The position numbers and the translations under genes were made by a program. A stretch of DNA of 64,000 nt from Spirochaetia bacterium (GTDB taxonomy: Bacteria > Spirochaetota > Spirochaetia > UBA9216): positions 544,001 to 608,000 of the forward strand of contig CAXXYH010000004.1 in NCBI GenBank assembly GCA_963677925.2, written 5' to 3'. The notes beneath the pieces are model-generated. The model was not told the origin of the DNA and made no database searches. It saw only the letters and a program-made list of their open reading frames with translations. Below, one piece after another: positions 7,882 through 33,625 of the stretch (position 1 is its first letter; every line of letters begins with the position of its first letter).

Positions 7882-8681
7882 ATATTTTCCTGTATGAGCT
7901 GAAAACCTACCGAATCTCCCTTATATTCTGGAGCCTTGGGATATTGGGGCTGATGGCTATGTTTATGATGATCTATCCTTCATTCGCTGCAGATACAGAG
8001 CTGATGGATAAGATGCTTGCCAATTATCCGGAGGCTATGCTCAAGGCTTTCGGAATGGATGCAGAACTTCCTCTGTCATCAATTCCGGGGTACTTTACTT
8101 TTACCTTTGCATTTATCCAGCTCGTTCTGGCTATCCAGAGTGCTAATTACGGTTTTCATTTTCTTTCTGTTGAGGAACGCGAGCTTACTGCAGATTTTCT
8201 TCTTTCGAAGCCAATCTCAAGAAGCAGAATTCTGTCTGCAAAGCTATGTGCAGTTGTTTTGGGTTTGATTATCATCAATGCGGTGGTCTGGGCAGCCAGT
8301 TATGGGTTCATTGAACTTTTTAGTGACGGTCATTCCTATAACCCGGAGAACATTGCTGTTCTGCTTGCTTCAGTTCCGGTTTTTCAATTATTTTTTATTG
8401 GAGTAGGTGCGGTTCTTTCTGCTGCTCTGAAAAAAATACGGAGTGTCCTGGCCTTTTCAATGGCACTTGCATTCGGTACATATATTATGAATGCTCTGAG
8501 GAATATTGCGGGAGGAACTGTTCTCGGCCTTCTAACCCCGTTCTACCATTTTGATCCGGTGTATATACTTAAAAATGGATCCTGGAATATGCAGACGGCG
8601 ATGATAAGTATTTCCATAATTGTCGTTACTGTAATAGGCGCATATGTGCTGTACCTGAAAAAAGATATCCATTCACTTTAG
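7878..8681 (+). CDS. ABC-2 type exporter permease
   Basis: About 6 TM segments; EERELTADFLLSKPISR motif; overlaps the ATPase stop. Confidence 0.88.
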   Translation: MNIFLYELKTYRISLIFWSLGILGLMAMFMMIYPSFAADTELMDKMLANYPEAMLKAFGMDAELPLSSIPGYFTFTFAFIQLVLAIQSANYGFHFLSVEERELTADFLLSKPISRSRILSAKLCAVVLGLIIINAVVWAASYGFIELFSDGHSYNPENIAVLLASVPVFQLFFIGVGAVLSAALKKIRSVLAFSMALAFGTYIMNALRNIAGGTVLGLLTPFYHFDPVYILKNGSWNMQTAMISISIIVVTVIGAYVLYLKKDIHSL

Positions 8682-8690
8682 GAGGCTCAG

Positions 8691-9485
8691 ATGAATATTT
8701 ATCTGCGTGAATTACGCGCCAATCTGAAATCATTGCTCATCTGGAGCACGATAATGATCGTAATTATTTTTATGATGATGTCTGAATTCGAGGCTTATTA
8801 CAATAATCCGGAAATGATGAGTATTCTTGATGCAATGCCTGAATCTTTGATGAAAGCATTTTCATTTTCTGGAGTAAATATAACAACTCTTTCCGGATTT
8901 TTGAGTATGGCATCAATTTACTTTTACCTGATGCTGACTGTATTTGCTTCTCTGCTGGGAAATTCGATAATTTCGAAAGAAGAACGTGATAAAACAGCTG
9001 AGTTTCTTATGACTATGCCTATCTCCAGGCCCCATATGCTTACGGCAAAAATTTTTGCAGCGATAACATATAATCTGATTTTAAATTTGATTACATTTGG
9101 AACTGTTCTGATTGCTTCATTAAAATATGATCCGGATTCTGAATTTCTAAAATTTTCATTATTAATGATGTCTGCTGTATTTTTATTACAGCTTGTTTTT
9201 TCGAGTATGGGTATGCTTTTTGCGTCTGTTCTTAAAAATCCCAGAAAAAGCGGAACGATAGCAATTGTTGTCCTGTTAATTATGTATGTTTTTTCCATAG
9301 CCGTTTCTCTAAGCGATTCCATCGAATTTATTAAGTTTGCATCACCCTATACTTATTTTGAACCGAATTATCTTCTTGTTAATGATCGTTTGAACAATTT
9401 GAATATAATCCTGTCGGCTGGTTTTATCTTGACTGGTGTTATCGTTACATATACTTTTTATCCCAAAAGAGATTTACAAATTTAA
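8691..9485 (+). CDS. ABC-2 type exporter permease (paralogue)
   Basis: About 6 TM segments; KEERDKTAEFLMTMPISR motif. Confidence 0.88.
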   Translation: MNIYLRELRANLKSLLIWSTIMIVIIFMMMSEFEAYYNNPEMMSILDAMPESLMKAFSFSGVNITTLSGFLSMASIYFYLMLTVFASLLGNSIISKEERDKTAEFLMTMPISRPHMLTAKIFAAITYNLILNLITFGTVLIASLKYDPDSEFLKFSLLMMSAVFLLQLVFSSMGMLFASVLKNPRKSGTIAIVVLLIMYVFSIAVSLSDSIEFIKFASPYTYFEPNYLLVNDRLNNLNIILSAGFILTGVIVTYTFYPKRDLQI

Positions 9486-9498
9486 TTATCAGAACTTA

Positions 9499-10131
9499 TT
9501 ATCTTTTTAGGTATTCAATTAATCCGGAATACCTAAAAAGTCTGTACGAAATGCTCCACATAATAGCAAAAATTATTAGATTCAAAATACGCCAGGTTAT
9601 CGGTTTTCGAAAAAGCGGGGAAAGCAGTCCTGCGCCTATGGATAAGCCGAAAAACCAGATGTATGACATCGTTACAGCTCCGGCACCGAACAGGTAGCGT
9701 CCGGAACCATCGAAAGTTCCGCTGATGCTGCCGAGCAGAACAACTGTATCCAGATAAACATGGGGGTTGAGAAGTGTTAATGCCAAAGCTGTTAATGCTA
9801 CCTGTTTACGGCCTTGAATATTCTGACTGTTATCACCCATACTGCCGGAACCCCGGACTGCAGATATCAGGTTCATAAGTCCGTATATGAATAAGAAGAC
9901 TGCTCCTGCTGCTGATGTAATAGTAATCAAAAGAGGCAGTCTTTCAATAAAGCGTCCAAGTCCGGCGACGCCTGCACCTATGAGAACTGTATCGCAGAGC
10001 GCACAAATAAAAGCAACTTCCAGATGATATTGCTTTTTGATTCCCTGTGTTAATACAAAGGCATTCTGAGAGCCGATAGCAATTATCAGTCCGGCTCCGA
10101 TTCCCATTCCTGTAAAATATGGAGTAAGCAT
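9499..10131 (-). CDS. argO: LysE/ArgO-family amino-acid exporter
   Basis: LIIAIGSQNAFVL, LTLLNPHVYLDTVVLLGS; divergent from an ArgP-type regulator. Confidence 0.9.
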   Translation of the reverse strand: MLTPYFTGMGIGAGLIIAIGSQNAFVLTQGIKKQYHLEVAFICALCDTVLIGAGVAGLGRFIERLPLLITITSAAGAVFLFIYGLMNLISAVRGSGSMGDNSQNIQGRKQVALTALALTLLNPHVYLDTVVLLGSISGTFDGSGRYLFGAGAVTMSYIWFFGLSIGAGLLSPLFRKPITWRILNLIIFAIMWSISYRLFRYSGLIEYLKR

Positions 10132-10157
10132 GTGATAAGCATATAGAAAATTTACAA

Positions 10158-10201
10158 ATTAGTATAATTAATAATTTTAATATAAAATTAGTGATGTTAA
10201 T
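10158..10201. promoter_or_regulatory. Three LysR-type ATTA-N7-TAAT boxes (candidate ArgP sites)
   Basis: ATTA-N7-TAAT at 10158-10172, 10167-10181 and 10187-10201 in the argO/argP divergent spacer. The region is AT-rich, so some chance matching is possible. Confidence 0.6.
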
Positions 10202-10209
10202 ATAAACAG

Positions 10210-11100
10210 ATGATTGAATACCGTAATCTCGAGGCTCTTGCTGCAGTTGTAGAAAATAAAGGTTTTGACAAGGCCGGTGAGGCCTTAGGCATCACCCAGT
10301 CTGCCGTAACCCAGCGAATTCGTCAGCTGGAGGAACTTACAGGGCAGGTTCTGCTTATTCGAAGCCAGCCTCCGGCTGTCACCGGTGCCGGGAGCATACT
10401 TCTTGAACACTTCAGAAAGGTAAGGCTGCTTGAACAGGAACTTTCAGTACAAGCCGGTTTGACTGACTTTTCCCAACTGCCGCTTATCTCGCTTGCTGTA
10501 AATGCGGACAGTCTTGCCACCTGGTTTTCCAAGGTTGTCAGCCGATATTTTTATTTGAGCAGCGGTTATCTTGATATTAAAAGTGCCGATCAGGATGTAA
10601 CTCACAGACTGATGACAGACGGCGAGGTTATGGGATGCATTAGTTCAATGGCTGCATCTTTCAGAGGCTGCAGGAAAGATTTTCTGGGAAGCCTGGTTTA
10701 TCGTTTTGTTTCCATCCGGGATTTTTCAGCTTATCATTTCCCTGATGGTATTGACCGGGATTCTTTTAATGCAGCTCCGAAACTGAACTTCAACCGGGAT
10801 GATCAGCTTCTTGCCAACTGGGCCGGACAGTTTTTTAAAGATTCAAAAGCTTTTAATAACAGCAGTTTTGTTCCCTCTTCTGAACAGTTTCCAATAATGA
10901 TACGTGAGGGAGCTGTATGCGGAATGCTGCCTGATGAGCAGTTTAAGATGTATCAGTCTGAATATGATCTTGTTGATTTATCAATGGAAAAGCCGGTTTC
11001 AATTCCGCTTTACTGGCATCGCTGGAGTATTTCTTCTGTTGAGCTTGACGTTTTAAGCAGAATAATTCGGGAAGAGGCTGAGGTTTCGCTGACCAAATAA
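10210..11100 (+). CDS. argP: LysR-family regulator, ArgP/LysG type
   Basis: LysR HTH (FDKAGEALGITQSAVTQRIRQLE), LAVNADSLATWF, LYWHRW. Confidence 0.9.
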   Translation: MIEYRNLEALAAVVENKGFDKAGEALGITQSAVTQRIRQLEELTGQVLLIRSQPPAVTGAGSILLEHFRKVRLLEQELSVQAGLTDFSQLPLISLAVNADSLATWFSKVVSRYFYLSSGYLDIKSADQDVTHRLMTDGEVMGCISSMAASFRGCRKDFLGSLVYRFVSIRDFSAYHFPDGIDRDSFNAAPKLNFNRDDQLLANWAGQFFKDSKAFNNSSFVPSSEQFPIMIREGAVCGMLPDEQFKMYQSEYDLVDLSMEKPVSIPLYWHRWSISSVELDVLSRIIREEAEVSLTK

Positions 11101-11137
11101 AAAGGGCCGGCTTCTTTTTAAAAGCCGGCCCTGATTT
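11092..11137 (+). repeat. 46-bp direct repeat, copy 1 (argP 3' end plus terminator hairpin)
   Basis: ACCAAATAAAAAGGGCCGGCTTCTTTTTAAAAGCCGGCCCTGATTT; 45/46 identical to 13896-13941. Confidence 0.95.
11101..11137. terminator. Bidirectional intrinsic terminator
   Basis: AGGGCCGGCTT...AAGCCGGCCCT stem between convergent genes, with an A-tract on the left. Confidence 0.8.
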
Positions 11138-11802
11138 TAATCCTTTACGCAGCGTACACTGAATCCGACAAGTTTCGGGAATTCTTCCCTGTTTGCTGTG
11201 GTGTAATAATCATGTACAGAATAACCGAAGGGATAATCCAACCCCAATGTATCACTCCACCAAACTGCACGAGAGTCTCCGTCGCTGAAACCTGAACCTC
11301 GTGATCCTCCCGGAACAGCTTTAAATCCTTTCGTATCTTCTCCTTCTCTTCCAGATGCCCACCTTGTCTCGGATTTTAAACAGGTCCATACGTACTCTGT
11401 CCCCTCAATGAGTTCCATATATTCAATTAAGGCTGTCCATTCTGCATCAGTTGCAACATGCCATCCTGTGGGTGCCAGCTTATCCGTTTCTACGGTATAC
11501 CAGTTGTATAATGCTCCTGATATGTCTTTATTGGAAATATCATTTTCATACCAGCAGTATGCTGCTGTCGAAGCTTCATCCCATTCTGTACTGTCCGTTA
11601 TATTCGCTATATTGGTGCCGTCATTAAGTTTGGTGGTCTTCAGGTTTTCAGCCATCCATTCAACACCGTTAATTAAAACTGTATCATAGTTATTTCCATC
11701 TTCATCTACGACCCCACTGCCGGGACCATCGGGAATAATGGATTCACCGCATGAAAGTATTATTGCTAAAAATGCTGTTAAAATTAAAAGTTTTTTTACC
11801 AT
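11137..11802 (-). CDS. Lipoprotein with Fibrobacter succinogenes major paralogous (FISUMP) domain
   Basis: Lipobox AIILSC; DEDGNNYDTVLING..WMAENL, GALYNWY, LAPTGWHVATDAEW, GFSVRCVKD. Confidence 0.88.
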   Translation of the reverse strand: MVKKLLILTAFLAIILSCGESIIPDGPGSGVVDEDGNNYDTVLINGVEWMAENLKTTKLNDGTNIANITDSTEWDEASTAAYCWYENDISNKDISGALYNWYTVETDKLAPTGWHVATDAEWTALIEYMELIEGTEYVWTCLKSETRWASGREGEDTKGFKAVPGGSRGSGFSDGDSRAVWWSDTLGLDYPFGYSVHDYYTTANREEFPKLVGFSVRCVKD

Positions 11803-12284
11803 GTTTCTCCCTCAGGTATGTAATAATCGGCTCCAGATGTTCCTCCGGTATAGGACCTTTTAAATGCAATAATTTTCCAGAGCTCATTATCTTTTCTCAT
11901 TATACAATAATATAAGTACACGCTTCCGGAATAGCTGGTTAGTGTTGAGTTATCATTGTATGTTCCCCAGGCAATCATATCTCCGGAACGCCCCGGACCT
12001 CCGTCATCTTCCGTCCATTCATAAACTGTTGGGGTGCCCATATATATCGGCGGAGAAAAAAAATCACGCCATGGATCAATCGATTTCCAGTCTTCATATC
12101 CTGCAAAATCCGGGTGAAGATAGGTATAAAGCTGTTCATATTCGGCCGGCAGCTGAGAATTAATTGCCTCAACAAAATCTTCCATCAAGTTATCAATCAG
12201 GCTTCTATCGGAGGGAGTGTCTTCACAGTTTGTGAATAATGCTAAAAACAATAAAATCAGAAAGGATGATATATTCTTTTTCAA
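11796..12284 (-). CDS. Hypothetical lipoprotein (possibly NTF2-like)
   Basis: Lipobox LALFTNC; GGAG SD before TTG; LHPDF...WKII pattern. Confidence 0.7.
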   Translation of the reverse strand: MKKNISSFLILLFLALFTNCEDTPSDRSLIDNLMEDFVEAINSQLPAEYEQLYTYLHPDFAGYEDWKSIDPWRDFFSPPIYMGTPTVYEWTEDDGGPGRSGDMIAWGTYNDNSTLTSYSGSVYLYYCIMRKDNELWKIIAFKRSYTGGTSGADYYIPEGETW

Positions 12285-12394
12285 CTTTTTCTCCCTAGGC
12301 TGTTTATCCTGATATAGATTTTTTGACTTGTCAATAATTTTTTTGGTGCACTAAATGATATCTTCTGCTATCATTTTTTTGATGGAGGTCTCTA

Positions 12395-12769
12395 ATGAAA
12401 AAAAATGTATTTATAAATATATTTCTGGCGGTTATTCTTTTTTCAATTTTTAGCTGCGGTGATCCTTTTGATACTGATGATATTGTCGGATCCGAATGGG
12501 TTGATGATTCAGGAAGTGATTTTATGATAAGGTTTATCACCGACAGGGCTTTTAATAAATTTGAAGTGGAGGATAATGTCGAAGAATTCTACCACTCGTT
12601 TTATTATGTCTATGACTCGGAAACCCTGACAGGATATTCTGTTACAAATTTGATTGTGGAACCGGACTTCGGTGTAGGTACAAAATTTACAATTTCTGAT
12701 GACGGATTATCTTTAACATTCTGGAATAATTTCGGGGGTAATGAATTCTACACAAGGAAATTATTTTAA
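12395..12769 (+). CDS. Hypothetical lipoprotein
   Basis: GGAGG SD; MKK..LFSIFSC lipobox; IVGSEW lipocalin-like start. Confidence 0.75.
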   Translation: MKKNVFINIFLAVILFSIFSCGDPFDTDDIVGSEWVDDSGSDFMIRFITDRAFNKFEVEDNVEEFYHSFYYVYDSETLTGYSVTNLIVEPDFGVGTKFTISDDGLSLTFWNNFGGNEFYTRKLF

Positions 12770-13335
12770 AATTGTACATCAAACCAGTCATATGGTTTGA
12801 TATTTGTATTAGACATATCCAGATAACTTACCGGTACAAGTTTTTTAGAATATGCTTCCCAGTTTACAGTTCCTATAGAACTGTCTCTTTCCCCGTATGA
12901 ATAGAATGAGACCCAGAAGGGAAATACAGCTTCTTCAGGATTAGAAGAGATTGCAGGAGCATAATATTCACCGTCATCAAGTTCATCATTTATATTAGAA
13001 TCAATCCAGAAAAGAATATCAATATAATTCTGATGATCTTCAAAGGTAGTAAAATCCGGAGCTGAAATATTGAGCGTATATTCAGCATTTTCTTCTACAG
13101 CGACTATGTTTGAAACAATAGACGGAGGACTTGAAAAACTGCCGGGGTCAATATCTTCTCCTGAGCCATTTCGGTAAAAAGCTGCAATTTTTGTATCGCT
13201 GACCGGGTCTGTTCCGGTTTCAATGGTTCCTGAAACTGACCATTCCAGAGTTTCAATATTTAATAATGCTTCAAAGTCACAGGAAGTTATGAAACATAGC
13301 GAAAGAATTCCTAAAAGTAATTTATAAATTTTCAT
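12766..13335 (-). CDS. Hypothetical lipoprotein
   Basis: MKIYKLLLGILSLCFITSC; acidic, with a DSNINDELDDGE possible Ca-binding loop. Confidence 0.72.
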   Translation of the reverse strand: MKIYKLLLGILSLCFITSCDFEALLNIETLEWSVSGTIETGTDPVSDTKIAAFYRNGSGEDIDPGSFSSPPSIVSNIVAVEENAEYTLNISAPDFTTFEDHQNYIDILFWIDSNINDELDDGEYYAPAISSNPEEAVFPFWVSFYSYGERDSSIGTVNWEAYSKKLVPVSYLDMSNTNIKPYDWFDVQF

Positions 13336-13344
13336 AGTATATTC

Positions 13345-13797
13345 CTACATTCCGAAGTAATCAAATATGAGATCATCATAATCATCGTAGCGGAAAGAGC
13401 TGTATTTATGGGTTAAAGTGTATTCATTTGATCCTGTTAAATTTACACTGCCTGAGACATAGTTCCAATCCGCCGTTACTGTTGCAGTTTCGTAATCCTC
13501 AAATGTCACTACTAAACTGATACCATCTAAATCGTAGGTGTATGGCTGGGATATATCTGTCGAATCAGATATTTCAATAGTGCAGGGAGGAATTTCAGTT
13601 ACAGTCGTACCTCCTGAACTGGCTTCTACCATAAATCTCACTACTAAATCACCATCCATGGGTTTTCTTGAAATGACCGCAGTTTCTAAGGGTTCAGTAT
13701 CATCTGTAGACCAAAGTCCTGTAAAAGATGTGAACTCGTTTGTTACAGGATCGCAGGCGTATAGGATAACAACGATTATGAATATAAGTTTTTTCAT
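13345..13797 (-). CDS. Hypothetical lipoprotein
   Basis: MKKLIFIIVVILYAC lipobox; acidic, beta-rich; FTGLW. Confidence 0.72.
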   Translation of the reverse strand: MKKLIFIIVVILYACDPVTNEFTSFTGLWSTDDTEPLETAVISRKPMDGDLVVRFMVEASSGGTTVTEIPPCTIEISDSTDISQPYTYDLDGISLVVTFEDYETATVTADWNYVSGSVNLTGSNEYTLTHKYSSFRYDDYDDLIFDYFGM

Positions 13798-13895
13798 AAG
13801 GCTATAATATTTTATTAATATCTGTTTGTCAAAAAATAATTTTAAAAGCGGTTATTAGAGATTTTCCGGAAATGAAAAAAGCTGCGGCCTCGTTA

Positions 13896-13941
13896 ACCAA
13901 ATAAAAAGGGCCGGCTTCTTTTTAAAAGCCGGTCCTGATTT
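13896..13941 (+). repeat. 46-bp direct repeat, copy 2 (terminator of the amino-acid ABC operon)
   Basis: ACCAAATAAAAAGGGCCGGCTTCTTTTTAAAAGCCGGTCCTGATTT; preceded by GCTGCGGCCTCGTTA, a degenerate argP tail. Confidence 0.95.
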
Positions 13942-13943
13942 AC

Positions 13944-14732
13944 TTACAGTACATTCCGTAGAAAGTTTTTAGTTTTTTCGTGTTTGGGATTTTCGAACAG
14001 CTTGCTGGGTTCTCCCTCTTCCAGAATCATTCCGTCTGCCATGAGGACAACTCTGTCTCCAACCTCGCGGGCAAACCCCATTTCATGCGTAACGCATATC
14101 ATGGTCATTCCCTGTTTTGCAAGATCCTTCATTACCGCAAGAACTTCACCGACAAGCTCCGGATCAAGCGCACTTGTGGGCTCGTCGAAAAGCATGATTT
14201 CAGGTTCCATCGCAAGTGCTCTGGCAATGGCAACTCTCTGCTGCTGACCACCGGAAAGCTTACTTGGATAAACATCACGCTTATCTGACAGTCCGACTCT
14301 TTCGATCAGTTTCTCGGCTGAAGCGATGGCCTCGGCTTTTGATTTTTTACGAATCAGGATAGGTGCAAGCGTCAGGTTCTCAAGAACTGTCTTATGGGGA
14401 AACAGATTAAACCGCTGGTATACCATTCCCATTTCAAGAAGCATTGCCTTCTGCTGGTCCGCCGGAACTCTGTGAACCGTTTTGTTATGATGCCGGTGAA
14501 GAAACAGTTTATCTTCTACAAAAATCTTTCCGCTTGTAATTTCTTCAAGATGTATCAAAGAGCGGAGGTAGGTGGATTTTCCTGCACCTGAGGGTCCGAT
14601 TATGCAGATAACCTCTCCCTTTTTAACCGCCAGGTCAACGTCCTTAAGAACTTCCAGAGGCCCGAAAGATTTGCAGAGCTTCTCTGTTCTGATTAGATAT
14701 TCATATTCATGTGACTGATTTTCTTTATTCAT
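13944..14732 (-). CDS. Polar amino-acid ABC transporter ATP-binding protein (GlnQ family)
   Basis: [37 protein letters not shown]. Confidence 0.95.
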
Positions 14733-15768
14733 AAACAGCTAACCTCGTTTCCATCTTTCCGAATATCCAGGTAAATATTGCGGTTACGATCAGGTAGATT
14801 ACAAGTGCCGGAAGGAATACAAGATAGCTTCCTTCACTGGTCATGATAGTTTTGGATATTGTTGTGATGTCCATCAGTGAGATCGCAAAAACAAGCGATA
14901 CGTCTTTGATCATCATGATAAACTCATTACACAGCGGCGGAATCATTCTGCGTGTTGCCTGCGGAATGATAATATGGGTCATTGTCTGAGCATAACCAAG
15001 TCCTAGAGTCTTAGATGCTTCATGCTGTCCCTTGTCAATTGACTGGATTGCTGCCCTGACAATTTCTGCGCAGTATGCTGCAGAGTTGAGTGAAAACGCA
15101 ATAAGAGCTGCTATAAAAGCGCCCTTATACACGGCTTCAGGATCCGCGGTATCGAATAATCCTCTCCAGGAGAAGCCGAAAATTCCCGGTATTGAAAAAT
15201 AGACAACAAAAAGCTGTATAAGAAGCGGGGTTCCTCTAAAGAAGAAAATATAGGCGCTGCTGATTTTACTGATTATTTTATTGGCTGATATTTTTCCAAG
15301 TGCAAGAAAGATGCTGAATATAAATCCTATAACTATTGATAGGGTTGTAAGCATCAGCGTAAGTTTTACACCATGCAGAAGGTTCTGCTTGATGCCAAGC
15401 ATCCGGTATGTATAGTTTACCATCTGGCCTGTAAACTTTCCGAATCCCTCATCTGCATGAAAAATGGTTCCTGCAAATCCAACATAAGATTCCTGGAATG
15501 CCTTTGCTCCGGAAGTTGAAAAAGAAAGGTAGCTTATAATATGAAAATCATTGTATGTAATTGTAAGACGCTTTCTGGAACTGTCTTTTTCATCTTCGAT
15601 CATCTGCTTTACCTGCGGTGAAGCATGATCCATCATTTCTGACTCAGAGACGTTAATAATCGAAAGAACAATAAACAAAATAACAGCAGCTATAACGACT
15701 ATAGCTGCTGTTTTAACAGATTGTTCCCATTCTCTAAAGTTAATTAGTTTTTTTAGGAAATCCTTCAT
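14725..15768 (-). CDS. Polar amino-acid ABC transporter permease (HisM/GlnP family) with N-terminal extension
   Basis: [32 protein letters not shown]. Confidence 0.92.
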
Positions 15769-15779
15769 TTATACTTTTA

Positions 15780-16571
15780 TCAGCCGCCGAACCAGTATTC
15801 AGTGCTTTCCTGGAAGAAGCCTTCAGCTTTAAGTTCATCAATGGCTTTATTGATTGCTGCCTGAAGTTCTGCATTTCCTTTCTTGATTGCAACGCCGAAC
15901 TGCTCAGCTTCACTCTTATCAAGGTAGGCAATTTTGTATTTATCAGAATATTTACCAACCTGACCGTCAGCAACGGTAGAGTCTACAACTACAGCATCAA
16001 TTTCTTTGTTGTCGAGCTGAGTAAAGCAGGTGATAACTTTTTCATTCTGAGCAACTGTACAGTTCAGTGAACCTGTAGAGATATAATCAGAAATGAGAAT
16101 ATCTGATGTTGTTTCTTTCTGAACAGCAAGTGCGAGTCCATCGAGGTCAAGGAAGCTTTCTACTTTAAGATCAGAATCAGCACGAACAACTACAGCCTGG
16201 TAATTGTCGATATAGGGGTTTGAGAAATCCATTGTTTCTTTTCTTTCTTCTGTGATGGTTACTGCAGAAATTACAACATCATAATTAACACCGATACCCT
16301 GAAAGATACCATCCCATGCTGTGTTGATGAAAACAATTTCAAGACCGAGTTTTTCACCGAGTGCGTTTGCGAAGTCAATATCGTAACCGATAGGTGTTGT
16401 TCCGTCCTGTGCGAAGTCCTCGAAAGGCGGGTAACCGATTTCAACACCGATTGTAAGTGCACCATTTTTCATAAGGTTAAGATCGGATTCTGCAGCTTCC
16501 TGGGTACCTCCGGCGAATACTGCACTAAGGGCTGCAATACAGAAAAGTACTGCTAAAATGCTCTTTTTCAT
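15780..16571 (-). CDS. Polar amino-acid ABC substrate-binding protein (SBP family 3)
   Basis: Likely start MKKSIL at 16571 (GGAG SD); VFAGGTQE signal; YPPFE, GYDIDF, ITEERKETMDFSNPY. Confidence 0.92.
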   Translation of the reverse strand: MKKSILAVLFCIAALSAVFAGGTQEAAESDLNLMKNGALTIGVEIGYPPFEDFAQDGTTPIGYDIDFANALGEKLGLEIVFINTAWDGIFQGIGVNYDVVISAVTITEERKETMDFSNPYIDNYQAVVVRADSDLKVESFLDLDGLALAVQKETTSDILISDYISTGSLNCTVAQNEKVITCFTQLDNKEIDAVVVDSTVADGQVGKYSDKYKIAYLDKSEAEQFGVAIKKGNAELQAAINKAIDELKAEGFFQESTEYWFGG

Positions 16572-16672
16572 TAAATTACTCCTGTAAAAAATCATTTTTT
16601 AGGAAGTAAGTATATCATAAAATCCTTTATCTGCACCAGAATGCTTTTTCAAAATTATGACAGGATAATAAC

Positions 16673-25712: not shown

Positions 25713-27899
25713 TTAATGTAGACCGCCCCAAAAGGATTTTAACGAGTTCAACCATTCCCAAAGAAAATCAAAGCCTTCTGAGAGTGTAACCTCTCTATTG
25801 TTTTGTATTGTCTGAGAAGGATTCTTCTCAACCAAGACTTCATATATTTCACAAGAAGGATCATAAACCGTATCACGTTTATTTCCTGTAATTGTATAAA
25901 AAGACTTTAAAGTTCCTGCTGTCAGGTTTAATAGTTCACTCATGACTAAGTATGAACTATCTAAACCTCCTTGGGCGATTTGAAAATTATATTGTTTTGT
26001 TTCAGAATCATAATCTGGTAAACCAATTTCTAAAAGAATTGTAGGGTATTGCTCTGTTGATTCAGAAAAATCTTTTCTGCCAATATCTAAGATCCAGAAA
26101 TTGCCATCAAACTCAGGCTCCATGAATGTTTGTGAATACCCATCCGGATAGGATACTCGGATGGGATCTGTAATTCCGATACCAGAAGAAACCCATTCAA
26201 GTCCCCAGTTATTAAGCTCATATAGTCTAATCCATTTAGGTTCAAAATTTAGGGATATGATTGGATGATAATATAAATTTGATTTATCAAATTTGTTAAA
26301 ATTACCGAAATGATATGTTAAAATATTTGGAAGGCTGAAATAATTAAATTTACCATAAAAGTTTTTTCTCCAAGAAAACCAAGTCATTTCAGAAGATGCT
26401 ATAAGCTTAGGGATTGTTTCAAAGGCCAACCCATATTCAGACTCTAATATTTCATCGATGTAATTTTTTGTATTAGAAGTCTCAATTAAAGGAGCAGTAT
26501 TGTTTTGAATTTCATTAGTTCCAGGCACTTTAATATATCTCTGTAGATAACTCTGTTCCCCATCACTTTTTATTAGTGTATTTCCAGATTCAAGTTGCGT
26601 ATCTTTTAAATTTGAAGTAAAAACTGAAAAAAATTCATCTGTTAAGTTATGTCCATTTATTTCTAATCCATCTTGCAAATCGACATGGTTAATATAAACA
26701 CGATAATAAAAATAATCTGTTAAGCTATCCAATTCTACACTATTAAGGATAATAGACTTGTCTATTGTATATTCCAACTGAGGTATCGCTTCAGTATCTA
26801 ATAAAGTAGTGCCCGAAGAATCCCATTGTTTAATTTGAAAATTATAAATAGCATCAGTAATAGAAATATCACTTGCTAAAATTGGGATTTGTTTCACTAT
26901 GCGTTTATCTTTATCATAAATTCCAACTTTAAAAGTTATGTCGGATGAACTTGCATAACTGTTTACTTTAAAGTTAAGATTTAAAGTTGTTCCTGAAAGA
27001 GATGTATTACTATAATAAATCAGAGTAGCTGCTGTTTGTTTTACAATATCACGTATTTCTTCAACTTGGGCACTATTTGGAAGTGAACCTGTATATTTAC
27101 TTAATATTCTATCATCAGAAATCATATTAATTGTTAGGCCGCAATCTGATGTTGTCTGATATGAATTTGAAGTATCAATAGCAATAAACCTCATGATATA
27201 ATCCTGATCAAATATAGAAGTGTTGGGTTCTGTATTTGTGCTGTGCCGGTTTGATGATGAAAGATATGGAATGTACACAGTTGACTTCGAATTTGCAATA
27301 TCAAATCCATATAACACTTCTTTTCCAGATTGAAAAGGAATATTATAGCTCCAAATACGTACCAACATATCAGGAGTTAGCTCGTCAATTTCTGAAGGGC
27401 TAAGAGGTAAGTCGAAATTTATATGAAGTATATTTTGAAAAATATTTGAATTCTTATAAAGCTCAAATCCACTTTTTAATTGAGTTATAGCTGAGGATGG
27501 AATTTTGAACCTTTCAGTAATTTGCACATCTGTGTCATCATATGGTTGGCTTAATGCCATATATAAGTCAATATCACTAATATCTAAATAGGTTGAAACC
27601 TCGAATTCAATATGTACAGAAGAATTAGAATGAATATAAATATTTGAACCATTAATTAGACAGGGAACCAAACGTCCTGCCCACTGTCTGATTTCAGTTT
27701 CATCAGTTATGTTACGAGAATTATTACTTTCTTTTGAGTTAGTAGCGTCAATTCCGATTGTATCAAATCCAAAATACTCAATTGTGAGATTCGCGTTTGA
27801 TTCTATTACACCATCTGGTAGCCATAAATTACAACTGAATAAAAATATTAAAAGTATTACTATAATTAAATACTGGGTTCTATCTTTTTTATATTTCAT
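25713..27899 (-). CDS. Large hypothetical lipoprotein (AT-rich gene)
   Basis: 728 aa ORF with lipobox LIFLFSC; two loosely similar internal segments; no recognised domain. Confidence 0.7.
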   Translation of the reverse strand: MKYKKDRTQYLIIVILLIFLFSCNLWLPDGVIESNANLTIEYFGFDTIGIDATNSKESNNSRNITDETEIRQWAGRLVPCLINGSNIYIHSNSSVHIEFEVSTYLDISDIDLYMALSQPYDDTDVQITERFKIPSSAITQLKSGFELYKNSNIFQNILHINFDLPLSPSEIDELTPDMLVRIWSYNIPFQSGKEVLYGFDIANSKSTVYIPYLSSSNRHSTNTEPNTSIFDQDYIMRFIAIDTSNSYQTTSDCGLTINMISDDRILSKYTGSLPNSAQVEEIRDIVKQTAATLIYYSNTSLSGTTLNLNFKVNSYASSSDITFKVGIYDKDKRIVKQIPILASDISITDAIYNFQIKQWDSSGTTLLDTEAIPQLEYTIDKSIILNSVELDSLTDYFYYRVYINHVDLQDGLEINGHNLTDEFFSVFTSNLKDTQLESGNTLIKSDGEQSYLQRYIKVPGTNEIQNNTAPLIETSNTKNYIDEILESEYGLAFETIPKLIASSEMTWFSWRKNFYGKFNYFSLPNILTYHFGNFNKFDKSNLYYHPIISLNFEPKWIRLYELNNWGLEWVSSGIGITDPIRVSYPDGYSQTFMEPEFDGNFWILDIGRKDFSESTEQYPTILLEIGLPDYDSETKQYNFQIAQGGLDSSYLVMSELLNLTAGTLKSFYTITGNKRDTVYDPSCEIYEVLVEKNPSQTIQNNREVTLSEGFDFLWEWLNSLKSFWGGLH

Positions 27900-28812
27900 C
27901 TGATTCGCTCCTACGGATATTTACGATATATGTTTTTTGAGACACACCATCCTCTGAGGTAATAAAAATATTCAGGATGTTATTTCCATATTCAAGCGGA
28001 AACCCTGAATAAATTTCTCCAGAAGATAATAGAATGCTGTCATTGGCAAGAATTGAAATGTTTGAATCCGTTCCAAAAAACTCAAAGCTTATGTTTTCTA
28101 CATTGACAGCTACCTGATTAGTATATGTGTAAGTGTTTGTATCAAAAGCGGGATCCAATATGCCGTCAGAAAATAATACAGATGATAATGATGCTGCGGT
28201 CCCTGCCGAATTACGGGTAACCGATATTGAGTATTCGGATTCAGAAGTACCGGAACTGTCCGATAGCTTAATTGTAATGGAATTATCTCCTTCAGCAAGA
28301 TCTACCGTCGAATTATCTTCTATCCCATTTATTTTGGTAATCAAATCCGTTTTACCTGGAATTGTAAATACTTCCAAGCTGGTACATGAATATGAAACTG
28401 AGGTTGAATATTCATAAATATCTGAAGAAAATTCCGGGATAAGAAGGCCTTCAGAAAGATAGAGATTATACAATCTTGTATCCACTGAATTAACAACGTT
28501 TACTGTACATGTAGCATAATCCCCGGTTTTTGTTTCACCAATGAAAATTTCTGCGGTACCCAGGCTCTCAGCTGTTAAGGTCCACTGAAAATCTGTGTCG
28601 GGGATGACCTCAATCGAAACGATGTCGTTATCGCTCGAATTCCACCACATGTAAGATTCGTCACTGCGCGGCAGAATAGTTGCAGATAATGTCTTGATAT
28701 CCCCAACGTTCATTTCAACTTCTGTATTATCCAAAGTTATTGATGTTATTGGATTACATCCAATAAGAAGCAGCAATAACGGACCGATAATAAGCCACCT
28801 TCTTTTTGTCAT
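27889..28812 (-). CDS. Lipoprotein with Big_2 Ig-like domain and two cadherin-like beta-sandwich domains
   Basis: LLLIGC; ITLDNTEVEMNVGD..LSATILP...WNSSDNDIV; L.P.F....Y.Y...V and L.EG.N.I.I...YxI.VxR repeats. Confidence 0.85.
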   Translation of the reverse strand: MTKRRWLIIGPLLLLLIGCNPITSITLDNTEVEMNVGDIKTLSATILPRSDESYMWWNSSDNDIVSIEVIPDTDFQWTLTAESLGTAEIFIGETKTGDYATCTVNVVNSVDTRLYNLYLSEGLLIPEFSSDIYEYSTSVSYSCTSLEVFTIPGKTDLITKINGIEDNSTVDLAEGDNSITIKLSDSSGTSESEYSISVTRNSAGTAASLSSVLFSDGILDPAFDTNTYTYTNQVAVNVENISFEFFGTDSNISILANDSILLSSGEIYSGFPLEYGNNILNIFITSEDGVSQKTYIVNIRRSESDEI

Positions 28813-28827
28813 GTTTTTCTCCTCTTG

Positions 28828-29211
28828 CTAATTATCTGAAAAGCTTGATAGCTCTACATATTCCTGATCAATTATGTATTGTGAATCTCCATCCTGTATA
28901 ACGGCCGAGATATAAATGAAATTCAGATCTAATTGCACAGATACTTCCTGCAGTTTTCCAACTTCAGCGTTTGAAACTTCAATCAGCAGTTCAGCCTCTT
29001 GATCTGCAGTTTCGGTATAATATAAGGTTATATTGTCAATGTAGTAATTAAGGTTGTTGGTTGTTTGAGCTCCGAATTTCAGGATGCCGGGATATAGCTT
29101 ATAAAAGATAGTTATTTCATCAATTTCGTTACGACACCCTGTTGAAGATATAAAAAAAAGGGATATAAGGAGTAAGCCTTTCATAAATTTTGATAGTAAA
29201 TTAAGTTTCAT
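28828..29211 (-). CDS. Hypothetical lipoprotein
   Basis: Lipobox FISSTGC; co-oriented within the operon. Confidence 0.65.
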   Translation of the reverse strand: MKLNLLSKFMKGLLLISLFFISSTGCRNEIDEITIFYKLYPGILKFGAQTTNNLNYYIDNITLYYTETADQEAELLIEVSNAEVGKLQEVSVQLDLNFIYISAVIQDGDSQYIIDQEYVELSSFSDN

Positions 29212-29226
29212 AATTTATAATTATTT

Positions 29227-29673
29227 TCAATAATAGGTGATTGCTTTACTGTCCTTGTATAAAACTGAATATGAGCCATCATAGTTATCTTCCTCGAGAC
29301 TTAATTCAATCGTATAAGGCTCAAGATATGAAGCATTTTCCTCAGGTTCAAATGTCGCACTTACCGGAATAATGCCTGTTTTAGTCGTAAGAGTGTTTGA
29401 TTCATTATTTAAAAGTGTACCTATATACGGCCATTTGTCATCTGTAAATCTTAGAGTCACAACTATCCGATAAGTCTTCTCAATATCAAAATCTGTTATA
29501 TTGTATTTAAGGTAGATTTCTATAGAATCACCCTCTGATATTTCTGTCCCAGCTTCAGGGCTGACAGAAATAATTTCCAGATAACTGGACTCAAATGAAC
29601 AGGAAGTGATTAAAATCGTTAATATAATTGTTAGTATTTTAAATATATTTTTCATATACAGCCTGAACTCCAA
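29227..29673 (-). CDS. Hypothetical lipoprotein, Ig-like
   Basis: MKNIFKILTIILTILITSC (start likely 29655); IISVSPEAG. Confidence 0.7.
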   Translation of the reverse strand: MEFRLYMKNIFKILTIILTILITSCSFESSYLEIISVSPEAGTEISEGDSIEIYLKYNITDFDIEKTYRIVVTLRFTDDKWPYIGTLLNNESNTLTTKTGIIPVSATFEPEENASYLEPYTIELSLEEDNYDGSYSVLYKDSKAITYY

Positions 29674-32908: not shown

Positions 32909-33625
32909 TTAGGGAAATATCTGAAGCCAGGCCCATGAAAACGGCATGATCAGAACCAGGGAGGGGAGCATCCCTATAACCGGGAATGGAACCACTCCGC
33001 ATATTTTTAGACCTGTTGCAAGGAGGATGATACCTCCCGCAGCTGAAAAGTCGGCAAGCATTACAGGACTTACAAGGGGCATGATCCATGTCGCGGCAAA
33101 GAACAGCGCTGCCTGTAAGATAAACTGAGGTATTGCAACAAAGGCAAGGGTGTGCCCCAGAAAAGCCCCGAAGATTGCTGCAGTGAATAGGTCCAGTATT
33201 GCTTTAATAATCAGAAGGTTCGGATCTCCGGACATCCCCTCATTCAGGGCTCCGAGAATTCAGGTAGTACTCGCGCAGAATAGAACTATTACTGATATAA
33301 ACCTTTCCATATAAGCCATATGGTCGAGGGAATCTTTCGGCGGTTTAGAAATCTTTTCAACAATTGTTCTTGCATGACCGGCAAGGACTGTAACTCCTTC
33401 CTCCAGTTTTATCAGCTCACCGATTATTGTACCGATTATGATTGCAAGAATTACCGGAGGAAATAGATTCACTTTTACAATCATGGAAATACCGAGCCCC
33501 ATAGAAATACTTCCGAAAACCAGCGGGAGCCGTTCTTTCAGACGAATCGGGATGCGGTGTCCAAGTGTTGCGCCTATCAGGCTTCCTGCAATTATTCCTA
33601 TGCTGTTTACTATAGGTCCTGTCAT
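32909..33625 (-). pseudogene. DUF554 (YqgA/YdfK-like) membrane protein interrupted by one in-frame TGA
   Basis: The two ORF-track pieces are in the same frame and read ...LFCASTT*ILGALNEGMSGDP...; TGA (33260-33262) sits where the family usually has Gly. Confidence 0.85.

What the first reader, a model, noticed from the sequence alone, without database searches (positions are those of the whole stretch)
11077..13941. Five-lipoprotein cassette bracketed by a duplicated argP 3' end and terminator
Seen: a 46-bp direct repeat (45/46 identical) at 11092-11137 and 13896-13941. The similarity extends further upstream at codon level: argP ends A-E-V-S-L-T-K-stop (GCTGAGGTTTCGCTGACCAAATAA), and the non-coding copy reads A-A-A-S-L-T-K-stop (GCTGCGGCCTCGTTAACCAAATAA). 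Between the repeats lie five mutually unrelated AT-rich genes, all with lipoboxes, and no recombinase. Removing one repeat plus the interval would leave argP convergent with the ABC ATPase over one shared terminator. Inference: this is an att-like integration or recombination hotspot that captures surface-lipoprotein cassettes at a protein-gene 3' end, possibly with a recombinase acting in trans. It would be a variable surface module.
Basis: partly seen in the sequence, partly recalled or inferred. Interest (0 to 1): 0.72.

Follow-up and report, generated by a model that had tools for sequence, protein, structure and literature searches.

The report
Lipoprotein islet bracketed by duplicated terminator
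Five small lipoprotein genes sit between two copies of the last few codons of a regulator gene plus its terminator hairpin, which looks like the scar of one old DNA insertion rather than a working gene-capture site.

Summary
A 66-nt direct repeat (11072-11137 / 13876-13941; core 45/46) consists of the last 9 argP codons, the stop codon and a bidirectional intrinsic terminator. It brackets five mutually unrelated, single-copy lipoprotein genes. It is not a dispersed element: the 5.04-Mb genome has only these two copies.

The anatomy matches attL/attR of an element inserted at a gene's 3' end. The genome's own integrase-bearing tRNA-Glu island shows the same pattern of an identical core plus a degenerate inner flank.

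Several points count against a working capture site:
- No recombinase lies in the interval or the 64-kb window.
- No third copy of the core marks a cognate element.
- No empty site was found in any relative.
- argO-argP and the ABC operon are never adjacent elsewhere.
- A relative about 90% identical carries the same five genes in the same order.
- Low GC applies only to three of the genes and is shared by another lipoprotein cluster nearby.

Best reading (about 0.5): a fixed scar of one Campbell-type insertion, with both copies now serving as terminators. Present mobility could not be tested, because the contigs break inside the repeat.

Interest is low to moderate.

The parts
9499..10131 (-). 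argO/lysE-type basic amino-acid exporter, divergent from argP
   Evidence: PF01810 LysE, E 3.6e-32. NF006801 ArgO scores 188.8 bits, below its cut-off. It is conserved next to argP in 4 relatives.
10210..11100 (+). argP (ArgP/LysG LysR-type regulator); its last 9 codons and stop lie inside the left repeat
   Evidence: NF002964 at 304 bits (cut-off 197) and TIGR03298 at 288 bits (cut-off 273.6). ORF.
11072..11137 (.). Left repeat copy: argP 3' end, stop codon and terminator. The near-identical core is 11092-11137.
11103..11132 (.). Bidirectional intrinsic terminator hairpin. It serves argP on the + strand and LP2-LP1 on the - strand.
   Evidence: Terminator scan on both strands. Fold energies are -22.8 (+) and -27.9 (-) kcal/mol, z -4.7 and -4.9. 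The minus-strand stem is followed by a nine-base U-rich run.
11137..11802 (-). LP1, lipoprotein with a complete FISUMP / Fib_succ_major domain. Its stop codon abuts the left repeat.
   Evidence: PF09603, E 1.9e-30, profile positions 1-187 of 187. TIGR02145 at 96.9 bits. Single copy in the genome.
11796..12284 (-). LP2, lipoprotein of no family, with a TTG start
   Evidence: No Pfam or NCBIfam match. The Atlas gives only a weak SnoaL/NTF2-like lead, score 0.88. Single copy.
12395..12769 (+). LP3, lipoprotein of no family. It is the only + strand gene of the block, and its stop overlaps that of LP4.
12766..13335 (-). LP4, lipoprotein of no family
   Evidence: Only 2 homologues were found in 5.8 billion proteins: 89% (a 1160-nt Logan contig, the same length as X1 record 4) and 68% (an 8830-nt ENA contig). 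The structure model was unusable, pLDDT 43.7.
13345..13797 (-). LP5, lipoprotein of no family
   Evidence: It is alone in its 50% cluster. There are only weak multi-stretch matches to repeats of giant proteins. The Atlas gives a lipocalin-like lead, score 0.89. Structure model pLDDT 41.3.
13804..13832 (-). Promoter-like site for LP5-LP4 (TTGACA, 17 nt, TATTAT), inside the 78 nt between LP5 and the right repeat
   Evidence: Best site of the scan, 11 of 12 matches.
13876..13941 (.). Right repeat copy: non-coding pseudo-argP end plus terminator. The core is 13896-13941 and the hairpin 13907-13936. It ends 2 nt before the ABC ATPase stop codon.
13944..16595 (-). Polar amino-acid ABC operon: ATPase 13944-14732, permease 14725-15768, binding protein 15780-16595. 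It is terminated by the right copy.
   Evidence: PF00005, PF00528 and PF00497. The operon is 76-92% identical at protein level in 10 of 400 class genomes, each in a different context.

Best explanation
The 2.74-kb block 11138-13875 holds five lipoprotein genes in three transcription units. It is a fixed genomic islet. Its two borders are copies of one 61-66-nt segment: the last 9 codons of argP, the stop codon, and a bidirectional intrinsic terminator.

The most economical origin is a single reciprocal crossover. A circular DNA carried a diverged copy of that segment, and it recombined with the chromosomal argP terminator. This is Campbell-type integration, either by a site-specific recombinase that has since been lost or by RecA acting on the roughly 46-nt identical stretch.

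That event leaves an intact argP end on the left. On the right it leaves the incoming, diverged pseudo-argP end joined to the shared core.

Today both copies are kept because both are working terminators. The left one stops argP and the LP2-LP1 unit. The right one stops the ABC operon.

What is shown: the repeat, its uniqueness in the genome, its terminator nature, the gene content, and the absence of a recombinase. What is inferred: the insertion event, its direction, and its age.
For: - There are two copies only in the genome, and chance is excluded.
- Mismatches are clustered: 7 of 20 in the coding-derived part against 1 of 46 in the core. With the counts taken this is Fisher p about 3e-4 (my own calculation, no call); one search's printed 1.6e-4 used a hand-entered 8 of 20. 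The boundary was chosen after the fact.
- Six of the seven differences are transitions, and one codon pair is a synonymous Leu change. This is what a diverged allele of a coding end would show.
- The genome's own classical island has the same anatomy: tRNA-Glu, a 13-kb island, a 442-aa integrase, a 42-nt identical core and a degenerate inner flank.
- The block is self-contained. LP1's stop abuts the left copy, and a near-consensus promoter fills the 78 nt before the right copy.
- Both copies fold as strong hairpins with a U-run on the minus strand.
- All five genes are singletons in the genome and nearly orphan in public data.
- The insertion is old. Run X1 holds all five genes in the same order at about 90-96% identity, similar to the flanks at 82-95%.
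Against: - No empty site, donor element or circular form was seen.
- No relative has argP next to the ABC operon, so the supposed target state is hypothetical.
- After a residence at least as long as the split from the X1 relative, a core still 45/46 identical needs extra pleading. That could be terminator constraint plus gene conversion. The X1 left copy differs by two 1-nt deletions, so constraint alone is not strict.
- Low GC is not specific to the block. The other lipoprotein cluster at 25713-29673 has 33% GC, and LP1-LP2 are at 41%.
- The X1 contigs do not bridge the repeats. One X1 contig carrying the ABC ATPase runs 41 nt past the stop without matching the right copy. So even the linkage in the relative is not shown.
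Confidence: 0.5

Rival explanations
1. Local, non-mobile duplication. The lipoprotein genes are native neighbours of argP. The argP-end-plus-terminator segment was copied 2.8 kb away. This could be a tandem segmental duplication followed by deletion, or a short conversion event. The copy was retained because it gave the ABC operon a terminator.
For: - A second pair of look-alike terminators (55 nt, 85% identical, G000:C3:1081122 and 1083092) brackets a single 619-aa gene in the same genome. Terminator duplication may therefore recur here without any mobile element.
- Cargo and flanks differ from the X1 relative by similar amounts.
- Low GC is shared with another lipoprotein cluster.
- No recombinase and no empty site were found.
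Against: - The model needs two steps, or a conversion event without prior homology.
- The copied piece includes 20-29 nt of argP coding sequence with no terminator role.
- The sharp step from 65% to 98% identity inside the repeat does not fit uniform decay of an in-situ copy unless conversion is added.
Confidence: 0.28
2. The two copies are live attL/attR sites. The block is an integrase-less, cis-mobilizable cassette (CIME-like) that a recombinase encoded elsewhere can excise and re-insert, making a variable surface module.
For: - The structure fits the CIME definition: att-like repeats kept, recombination genes absent (definition read in passages of PMC5704250).
- The core is 45/46 identical although the terminator loop differs in the X1 relative. 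Repeated exchange between the copies would explain this.
- The genome encodes 7 tyrosine recombinases, including an integron integrase. One of them lies in an island about 60 kb before the window.
Against: - No third copy of the core exists in the genome, so no resident element shares this att site.
- No recombinase family matched any of the 59 window ORFs.
- The only close relative has the same five genes in the same order.
- The block was not found on plasmids or phages, nor in 400 class genomes by DNA search (only 2 candidates were scored per genome).
- Profiles of the genome's own attC-like repeats find nothing in the window.
Confidence: 0.12
3. Chance resemblance, or a member of a dispersed REP-like or terminator repeat family.
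For: - One weaker look-alike terminator sits at G000:C3:770511 (83% over 41 nt).
- The hairpin pattern matches one terminator in an unrelated Zixiibacteriota MAG.
Against: - Zero matches in 100 shuffles.
- Only two full copies in 5.04 Mb.
- The similarity extends into argP codons, beyond the hairpin.
- The MAG match shares nothing beyond the hairpin and the few bases beside it.
Confidence: 0.02

Closest known systems
CIMEs (cis-mobilizable elements): decayed ICEs or IMEs that keep attL and attR but have lost their integration and transfer genes (review PMC5704250, passages read)
   Same: Direct repeats flank a small cargo. One repeat includes the 3' end of the target gene. No recombinase lies inside.
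   Different: A CIME is recognised through a cognate ICE or IME that uses the same att site. Here no other copy of the core exists in the genome, and neither excision nor accretion has been seen.
Genomic islands integrated at the 3' end of a gene, for example SGI1 at trmE (abstract of PMC8409611, seen in the listing), and this genome's own tRNA-Glu island at G000:C4:2146906-2160049
   Same: An intact gene end on one side, and on the far side a partial copy with an identical core of about 42-46 nt and a degenerate inner flank.
   Different: Those islands carry an integrase next to the att site; the internal example has a 442-aa one. The lipoprotein block has none, is only 2.7 kb, and its core is a terminator hairpin lying mostly downstream of the stop codon.
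Integron gene cassettes with attC sites
   Same: Hairpin-forming repeats bracket genes. The genome does carry an integron integrase and arrays of attC-like repeats.
   Different: The repeat is a perfect GC-rich terminator stem. By eye I saw no boxes of the recalled attC core type at its ends. Profiles of both attC-like types of this genome give no hit in the window at E up to 10. The block holds five genes with their own promoters in both orientations.

Membership tests
Integrative element (genomic island, ICE or IME) att scar | Direct repeats flank the element, and one repeat overlaps the 3' end of the target gene | tested here: met
   The left copy holds the last 9 argP codons and the stop.
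Integrative element (genomic island, ICE or IME) att scar | An integrase or recombinase gene inside the element, next to an att site | tested here: not met
   The 5 interval ORFs have no recombinase family. None was found in any of the 59 window ORFs of 100 aa or more. The nearest PF00589 hit is G000:C4:481611, about 73 kb from the locus.
Integrative element (genomic island, ICE or IME) att scar | An empty target site or different cargo in relatives | tested here: not met
   No relative has argP next to the ABC operon. This covers 4 argP loci and 9 of the 10 ABC-bearing relatives' loci. The X1 relative has the same five genes. The sample of close relatives is very small.
Integrative element (genomic island, ICE or IME) att scar | An excised circular form and a restored junction | tested here: inconclusive
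   Only assembled contigs were available. They break inside the 37-nt exact repeat (8000-11121, 11099-13925, 13903-15816). Their depths of 11.5, 5.4 and 6.0 do not discriminate.
CIME (cis-mobilizable element) | attL and attR retained, with integration and transfer genes lost | tested here: met
   Met structurally only. Definition from PMC5704250.
CIME (cis-mobilizable element) | A cognate element or recombinase with the same att specificity | tested here: not met
   No third copy of the core in the genome. Nothing in metagenome contigs, and only one chance hairpin match in species-representative genomes.
REP-like or dispersed terminator repeat | Many copies spread over the genome | tested here: not met
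   2 copies plus one 83%/41-nt look-alike in 5.04 Mb.
Integron cassette / attC | Similarity to attC sites (imperfect hairpin with inverse-core and core boxes) | tested here: not met
   nhmmer profiles built from 31 and 11 attC-like repeats of this genome give no hit in the window at E up to 10. By eye there are no core-type boxes at the repeat ends; the motif is recalled.
Transposon with target-site duplication | A short identical duplication, terminal inverted repeats and a transposase | tested here: not met
   The repeat is 61-66 nt with clustered mismatches. No inverted repeat pairs the two ends of the block. No transposase family was found.
DGR (diversity-generating retroelement) target | A reverse transcriptase and a template repeat matching the C-terminal variable region | tested here: not met
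   No PF00078 hit in the genome. No second copy of any part of the LP1 gene.

The most novel reading that the evidence does not exclude
The terminator hairpin core is itself a recombination site. One of the genome's seven tyrosine recombinases uses it in trans; two of them are integron-type. Under this reading, intrinsic terminators act as docking sites for promoter-bearing, multi-gene lipoprotein modules. The second duplicated-terminator pair at G000:C3:1081122/1083092, which brackets one gene, would be another product of the same process.
Probability: 0.08. Interest if true: 0.65.

Novelty: new member of a known kind. Interest (0 to 1): 0.27.

Why it matters
If the scar reading is right, this is an ordinary example of how small surface-protein islets enter a spirochaete chromosome at the 3' end of a gene and then become fixed. 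The duplicated target is re-used as a terminator on both sides. That is useful for annotation, but it is not a new mechanism.

It would matter more if the hairpin core proved to be a live recombination site. That would be an integrase-less, terminator-targeted cassette system for surface lipoproteins. Nothing found here shows this.

Tried and rejected
- Dispersed repeat: rejected.
- Searches for relatives: metagenome contigs gave nothing with ArgP or with the hairpin pattern. The species-representative genome scan gave one unrelated hairpin in a Zixiibacteriota MAG.
- Synteny with the same-genus genome G001: none. DNA matches are 65-70% and scattered, or absent. ArgP, LP5 and the ABC-2 permease were not found there.
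No ArgP or permease cluster with that contig length appears in the lists. Clustering at 90% identity could hide one.
- Plasmid and phage collections: no match.
- Class-wide DNA search with the block: only a weak LP1-domain hit in G106.
- DGR idea for the FISUMP protein LP1, prompted by the listing: no reverse transcriptase and no template repeat.
- Integron idea: no attC-like similarity.
- Structure prediction of LP4 (3-row alignment) and LP5 (single sequence): pLDDT 43.7 and 41.3, so no fold search was run.
- Atlas leads for LP2 (SnoaL-like, 0.88) and LP5 (lipocalin-like, 0.89) are below the level that counts.
- LP5's weak matches are to unrelated repeat families: DUF4347, SpaA-type and CHRD proteins.
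- Rfam: nothing near the gathering scores.
- Contig depths in run X2 (11.5, 5.4, 6.0, 7.6) say nothing about excision.
- One search scanned the wrong locus for tRNAs and is void. The tRNA was confirmed.
- Literature: searches (listings only) showed no paper on argP as an integration site or on terminator-flanked islets.
Full report
**1. Observation**

The repeat finder reports one two-copy family, 11072-11137 and 13876-13941. It is 66 nt long, 88% identical, with start-to-start spacing 2804. The 46-mer 11092-11137 recurs at 13896-13941 with one mismatch. None of 100 dinucleotide-preserving shuffles of the window gave any match.

In the fixed register there are 7 mismatches in 11072-11091 and 1 in 11092-11137. 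Identity drops to background outside: 6 of 32 upstream and 10 of 23 downstream. A gapped local alignment does not extend the repeat.

The left copy is the end of argP (E-A-E-V-S-L-T-K-stop) plus a hairpin. The right copy reads K-A-A-A-S-L-T-K-stop and is attached to no gene.

**2. What the repeat is**

Each copy contains a strong hairpin that scans as an intrinsic terminator on both strands. The hairpins are at 11103-11132 and 13907-13936. Fold energies are -22.8 and -27.9 kcal/mol for the left copy (+/-) and -20.1 and -21.4 for the right, with z-scores of -4.3 to -4.9.

On the minus strand the stem is followed by a nine-base U-rich run that overlaps the argP stop codon. LP1's stop codon abuts the left copy. 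The ABC ATPase stop lies 2 nt beyond the right copy. So the left copy can terminate argP and the LP2-LP1 unit, and the right copy can terminate the ABC operon.

**3. Copy number**

The whole genome is 5.04 Mb in 4 contigs, and the window is C4:544001-608000. It holds only these two copies, plus one terminator at C3:770511 that is 83% identical over 41 nt. The repeat is therefore not a REP-like or dispersed element.

The hairpin pattern was absent from the metagenome contig collection. It matched one Zixiibacteriota MAG terminator that shares nothing beyond the hairpin and the few bases beside it.

**4. The genes**

- Left flank: argO/lysE (9499-10131, -) and argP (10210-11100, +). ArgP/LysG models score above their cut-offs.
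- LP1 (11137-11802, -) has a complete FISUMP / Fib_succ_major domain.
- LP2 (11796-12284, -), LP3 (12395-12769, +), LP4 (12766-13335, -) and LP5 (13345-13797, -) match no Pfam or NCBIfam family.
- All five have a basic, then hydrophobic N-terminus and a Cys at residue 15-21. This was a rule-based check only.
- They resemble each other only in the signal peptides. Each is single-copy in the genome.
- The best promoter-like site of the region (11 of 12 matches) lies in the 78 nt between LP5 and the right copy.
- Right flank: an ABC ATPase, permease and binding-protein operon (13944-16595, -).
- No recombinase or transposase family matched any of the 59 non-nested window ORFs of 100 aa or more (ORF list; scans).

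**5. Composition**

LP3-LP5 plus the promoter region have 34.8% GC, the 4th percentile of 1.6-kb genome windows. LP1-LP2 have 41.4%, the 32nd percentile. A second lipoprotein cluster in the window (25713-29673) has 33.0%. Low GC therefore goes with lipoprotein clusters here and is not a specific mark of recent import.

**6. Relatives**

Species-representative genomes are distant.

- *ArgP.* It was found in 3 of 40 relatives at E 1e-20 or better, and not in the same-genus genome G001. It was found in 4 of 400 class genomes at E 1e-90 or better.
- *argP loci.* In the four argP loci read (G008, G197, G241, G312), only argO-argP is shared with the window and the downstream genes differ.
- *ABC permease.* It has relatives at 82-92% identity in 10 of 400 class genomes.
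- *Downstream of the ATPase.* In the 9 loci that reach past the ATPase stop, the downstream sequence differs in every case and none has the repeat.
- *Wider flanks.* When 9 of those loci were extended to 7-20 kb, only the three-gene operon is shared.
- *Linkage.* G197 has argP and the ABC operon on different contigs.

It could not be refuted either, because no close genome is available.

The block itself was not found in 400 class genomes by DNA search, apart from a weak LP1-domain hit. It was not found on plasmids or phages. LP4 has just two homologues in 5.8 billion proteins. LP5 is alone in its 50% cluster.

**7. The one close relative**

Of two public runs, X2 holds 99% of the sampled words and is probably the source. 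X1, a metagenome from another study, holds a relative.

Laid at 80% or better, the X1 contigs give the following:
- 11194-12507 covers LP1, LP2 and the start of LP3, with 136 differences in 1314.
- 12558-13637 covers the rest of LP3, LP4 and two thirds of LP5, with 86 differences in 1073. At the LP3/LP4 junction, 87 letters replace 7.
- Flank pieces are 82-95% identical.
- A contig over the left terminator carries two 1-nt deletions.

The five genes are therefore present in the same order in a relative about 90% identical, and cargo and flanks have diverged by similar amounts.

There are limits to this evidence:
- No X1 contig bridges either repeat.
- The X1 contig carrying the ATPase gene runs 41 nt beyond the stop without matching the right copy. 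It may belong to another organism, since this operon is widespread.
- The X2 contigs end and start exactly as a k=31 graph must at a 37-nt exact repeat (8000-11121, 11099-13925, 13903-15816). They can show neither an empty junction nor a circle. Their depths (11.5, 5.4, 6.0) do not discriminate.

**8. Internal comparators**

A self-comparison of the genome lists few isolated local direct repeats.

- *tRNA-Glu island.* One pair is a textbook island. It comprises a tRNA-Glu gene, a 13-kb insert, a 442-aa ORF with a PF00589 hit next to the tRNA, and a partial tRNA copy at the far end. The partial copy has a 42-nt identical core and a degenerate inner flank. The lipoprotein locus has the same anatomy minus the integrase.
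- *Second terminator pair.* Another pair is two look-alike terminators, 55 nt and 85% identical, bracketing a single 619-aa gene at C3:1081122/1083092. Terminator duplication around an inserted gene has therefore happened at least twice.
- *Recombinases.* The genome has 7 PF00589 hits above the cut-off. One is an integron integrase at 383 bits against a cut-off of 265, next to an array of attC-like repeats. Profiles of both attC-like types find nothing in the window.
- *Earlier finding.* An earlier finding of this scan places a genomic island with an integrase about 60 kb before the window. The PF00589 hit at C4:481611 agrees with it. No copy of the core lies there.

**9. Mechanism**

The best-supported reading is a scar of one Campbell-type insertion. 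A circular DNA carried a diverged copy of the argP end plus terminator. It crossed over with the chromosomal copy inside the roughly 46-nt identical stretch.

This explains four things:
- the intact argP;
- the displaced, diverged pseudo-end (6 transitions and 1 transversion, including a synonymous Leu codon change);
- the sharp identity step inside the repeat;
- the compact, self-sufficient cargo.

Whether the crossover was made by a site-specific recombinase or by RecA cannot be told.

The main rival is a local duplication of the terminator segment with native lipoprotein genes. The second terminator pair and the unremarkable composition favour it.

The near-perfect core, despite loop changes in the relative, hints at exchange between the copies. 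But the model lacks a recombinase, a cognate element, an empty site or any variation in cargo.

**10. Comparison with known systems**

[quoted passage not shown] The cognate-element criterion is not met, however.

Islands at the 3' ends of protein genes are well known, for example SGI1 at trmE (abstract in the listing). Literature searches gave no listed paper on argP as an integration target or on terminator-flanked islets (listings only).

**11. Verdict**

The claims of a capture hotspot and a variable surface module are unsupported. I rate it a new member of a known kind, of low to moderate interest.

Noticed in passing
G000:C3:51630-129455 (outside the window): A large chromosomal integron. 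An integron-integrase match (TIGR02249, 383 bits, cut-off 265) lies at C3:128526-129455. Beside it is an array of about 135-143-nt attC-like repeats spaced 1-5 kb apart: 27 copies on C3 and 4 on C4 in the opposite orientation.
   Followed up: partly
G000:C4:1138286-1160265 (outside the window): A second IntI-like tyrosine recombinase. It gives two partial TIGR02249 matches of about 98 bits each, below the cut-off. It is followed by an array of a different, roughly 90-nt attC-like repeat with 10 copies.
   Followed up: partly
G000:C4:2146906-2160049 (outside the window): A classical 13-kb island at the 3' end of tRNA-Glu(ttc). A 442-aa integrase ORF lies next to the tRNA, and a 58-nt direct repeat has a 42-nt identical core.
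   Followed up: yes
G000:C3:1081122-1083145 (outside the window): Two look-alike terminators (55 nt, 85% identical) bracket a single 619-aa gene that lies between an ABC ATPase-like gene and a 265-aa gene. This is a second case of a duplicated terminator around an inserted gene.
   Followed up: partly
window 13944-16595: The binding-protein, permease and ATPase operon is 76-92% identical at protein level in 10 of 400 class genomes from several families. Each copy sits in a different neighbourhood, and the operon was not found in most genomes of the window's own family. It behaves like a horizontally moving three-gene module.
   Followed up: partly
window 12766-12779: LP3 and LP4 converge with overlapping stop codons. 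The X1 relative has 87 letters in place of 7 here. The last residues of LP4 differ from both of its homologues, suggesting a small deletion that fused the two 3' ends.
   Followed up: partly
window 10134-10294: In the X1 relative, the argO-argP divergent promoter region (159 nt) is replaced by 160 unlike letters, while both genes are kept.
   Followed up: no
window 25713-29673: A second cluster of four minus-strand genes with lipoprotein-type N-termini, one of which has Cadherin-like domains. Its GC is 33%, the 2.6th percentile of the genome.
   Followed up: no
window 32909-33625: A DUF554 membrane-protein gene is split into two adjacent ORFs covering profile positions 1-109 and 120-220. This could be a frameshifted or interrupted gene.
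   Followed up: no
G000:C4:2167813-2173908 and 2195799-2201901 (outside the window): A 6.1-kb direct duplication at 98% identity, with the copies 28 kb apart.
   Followed up: no
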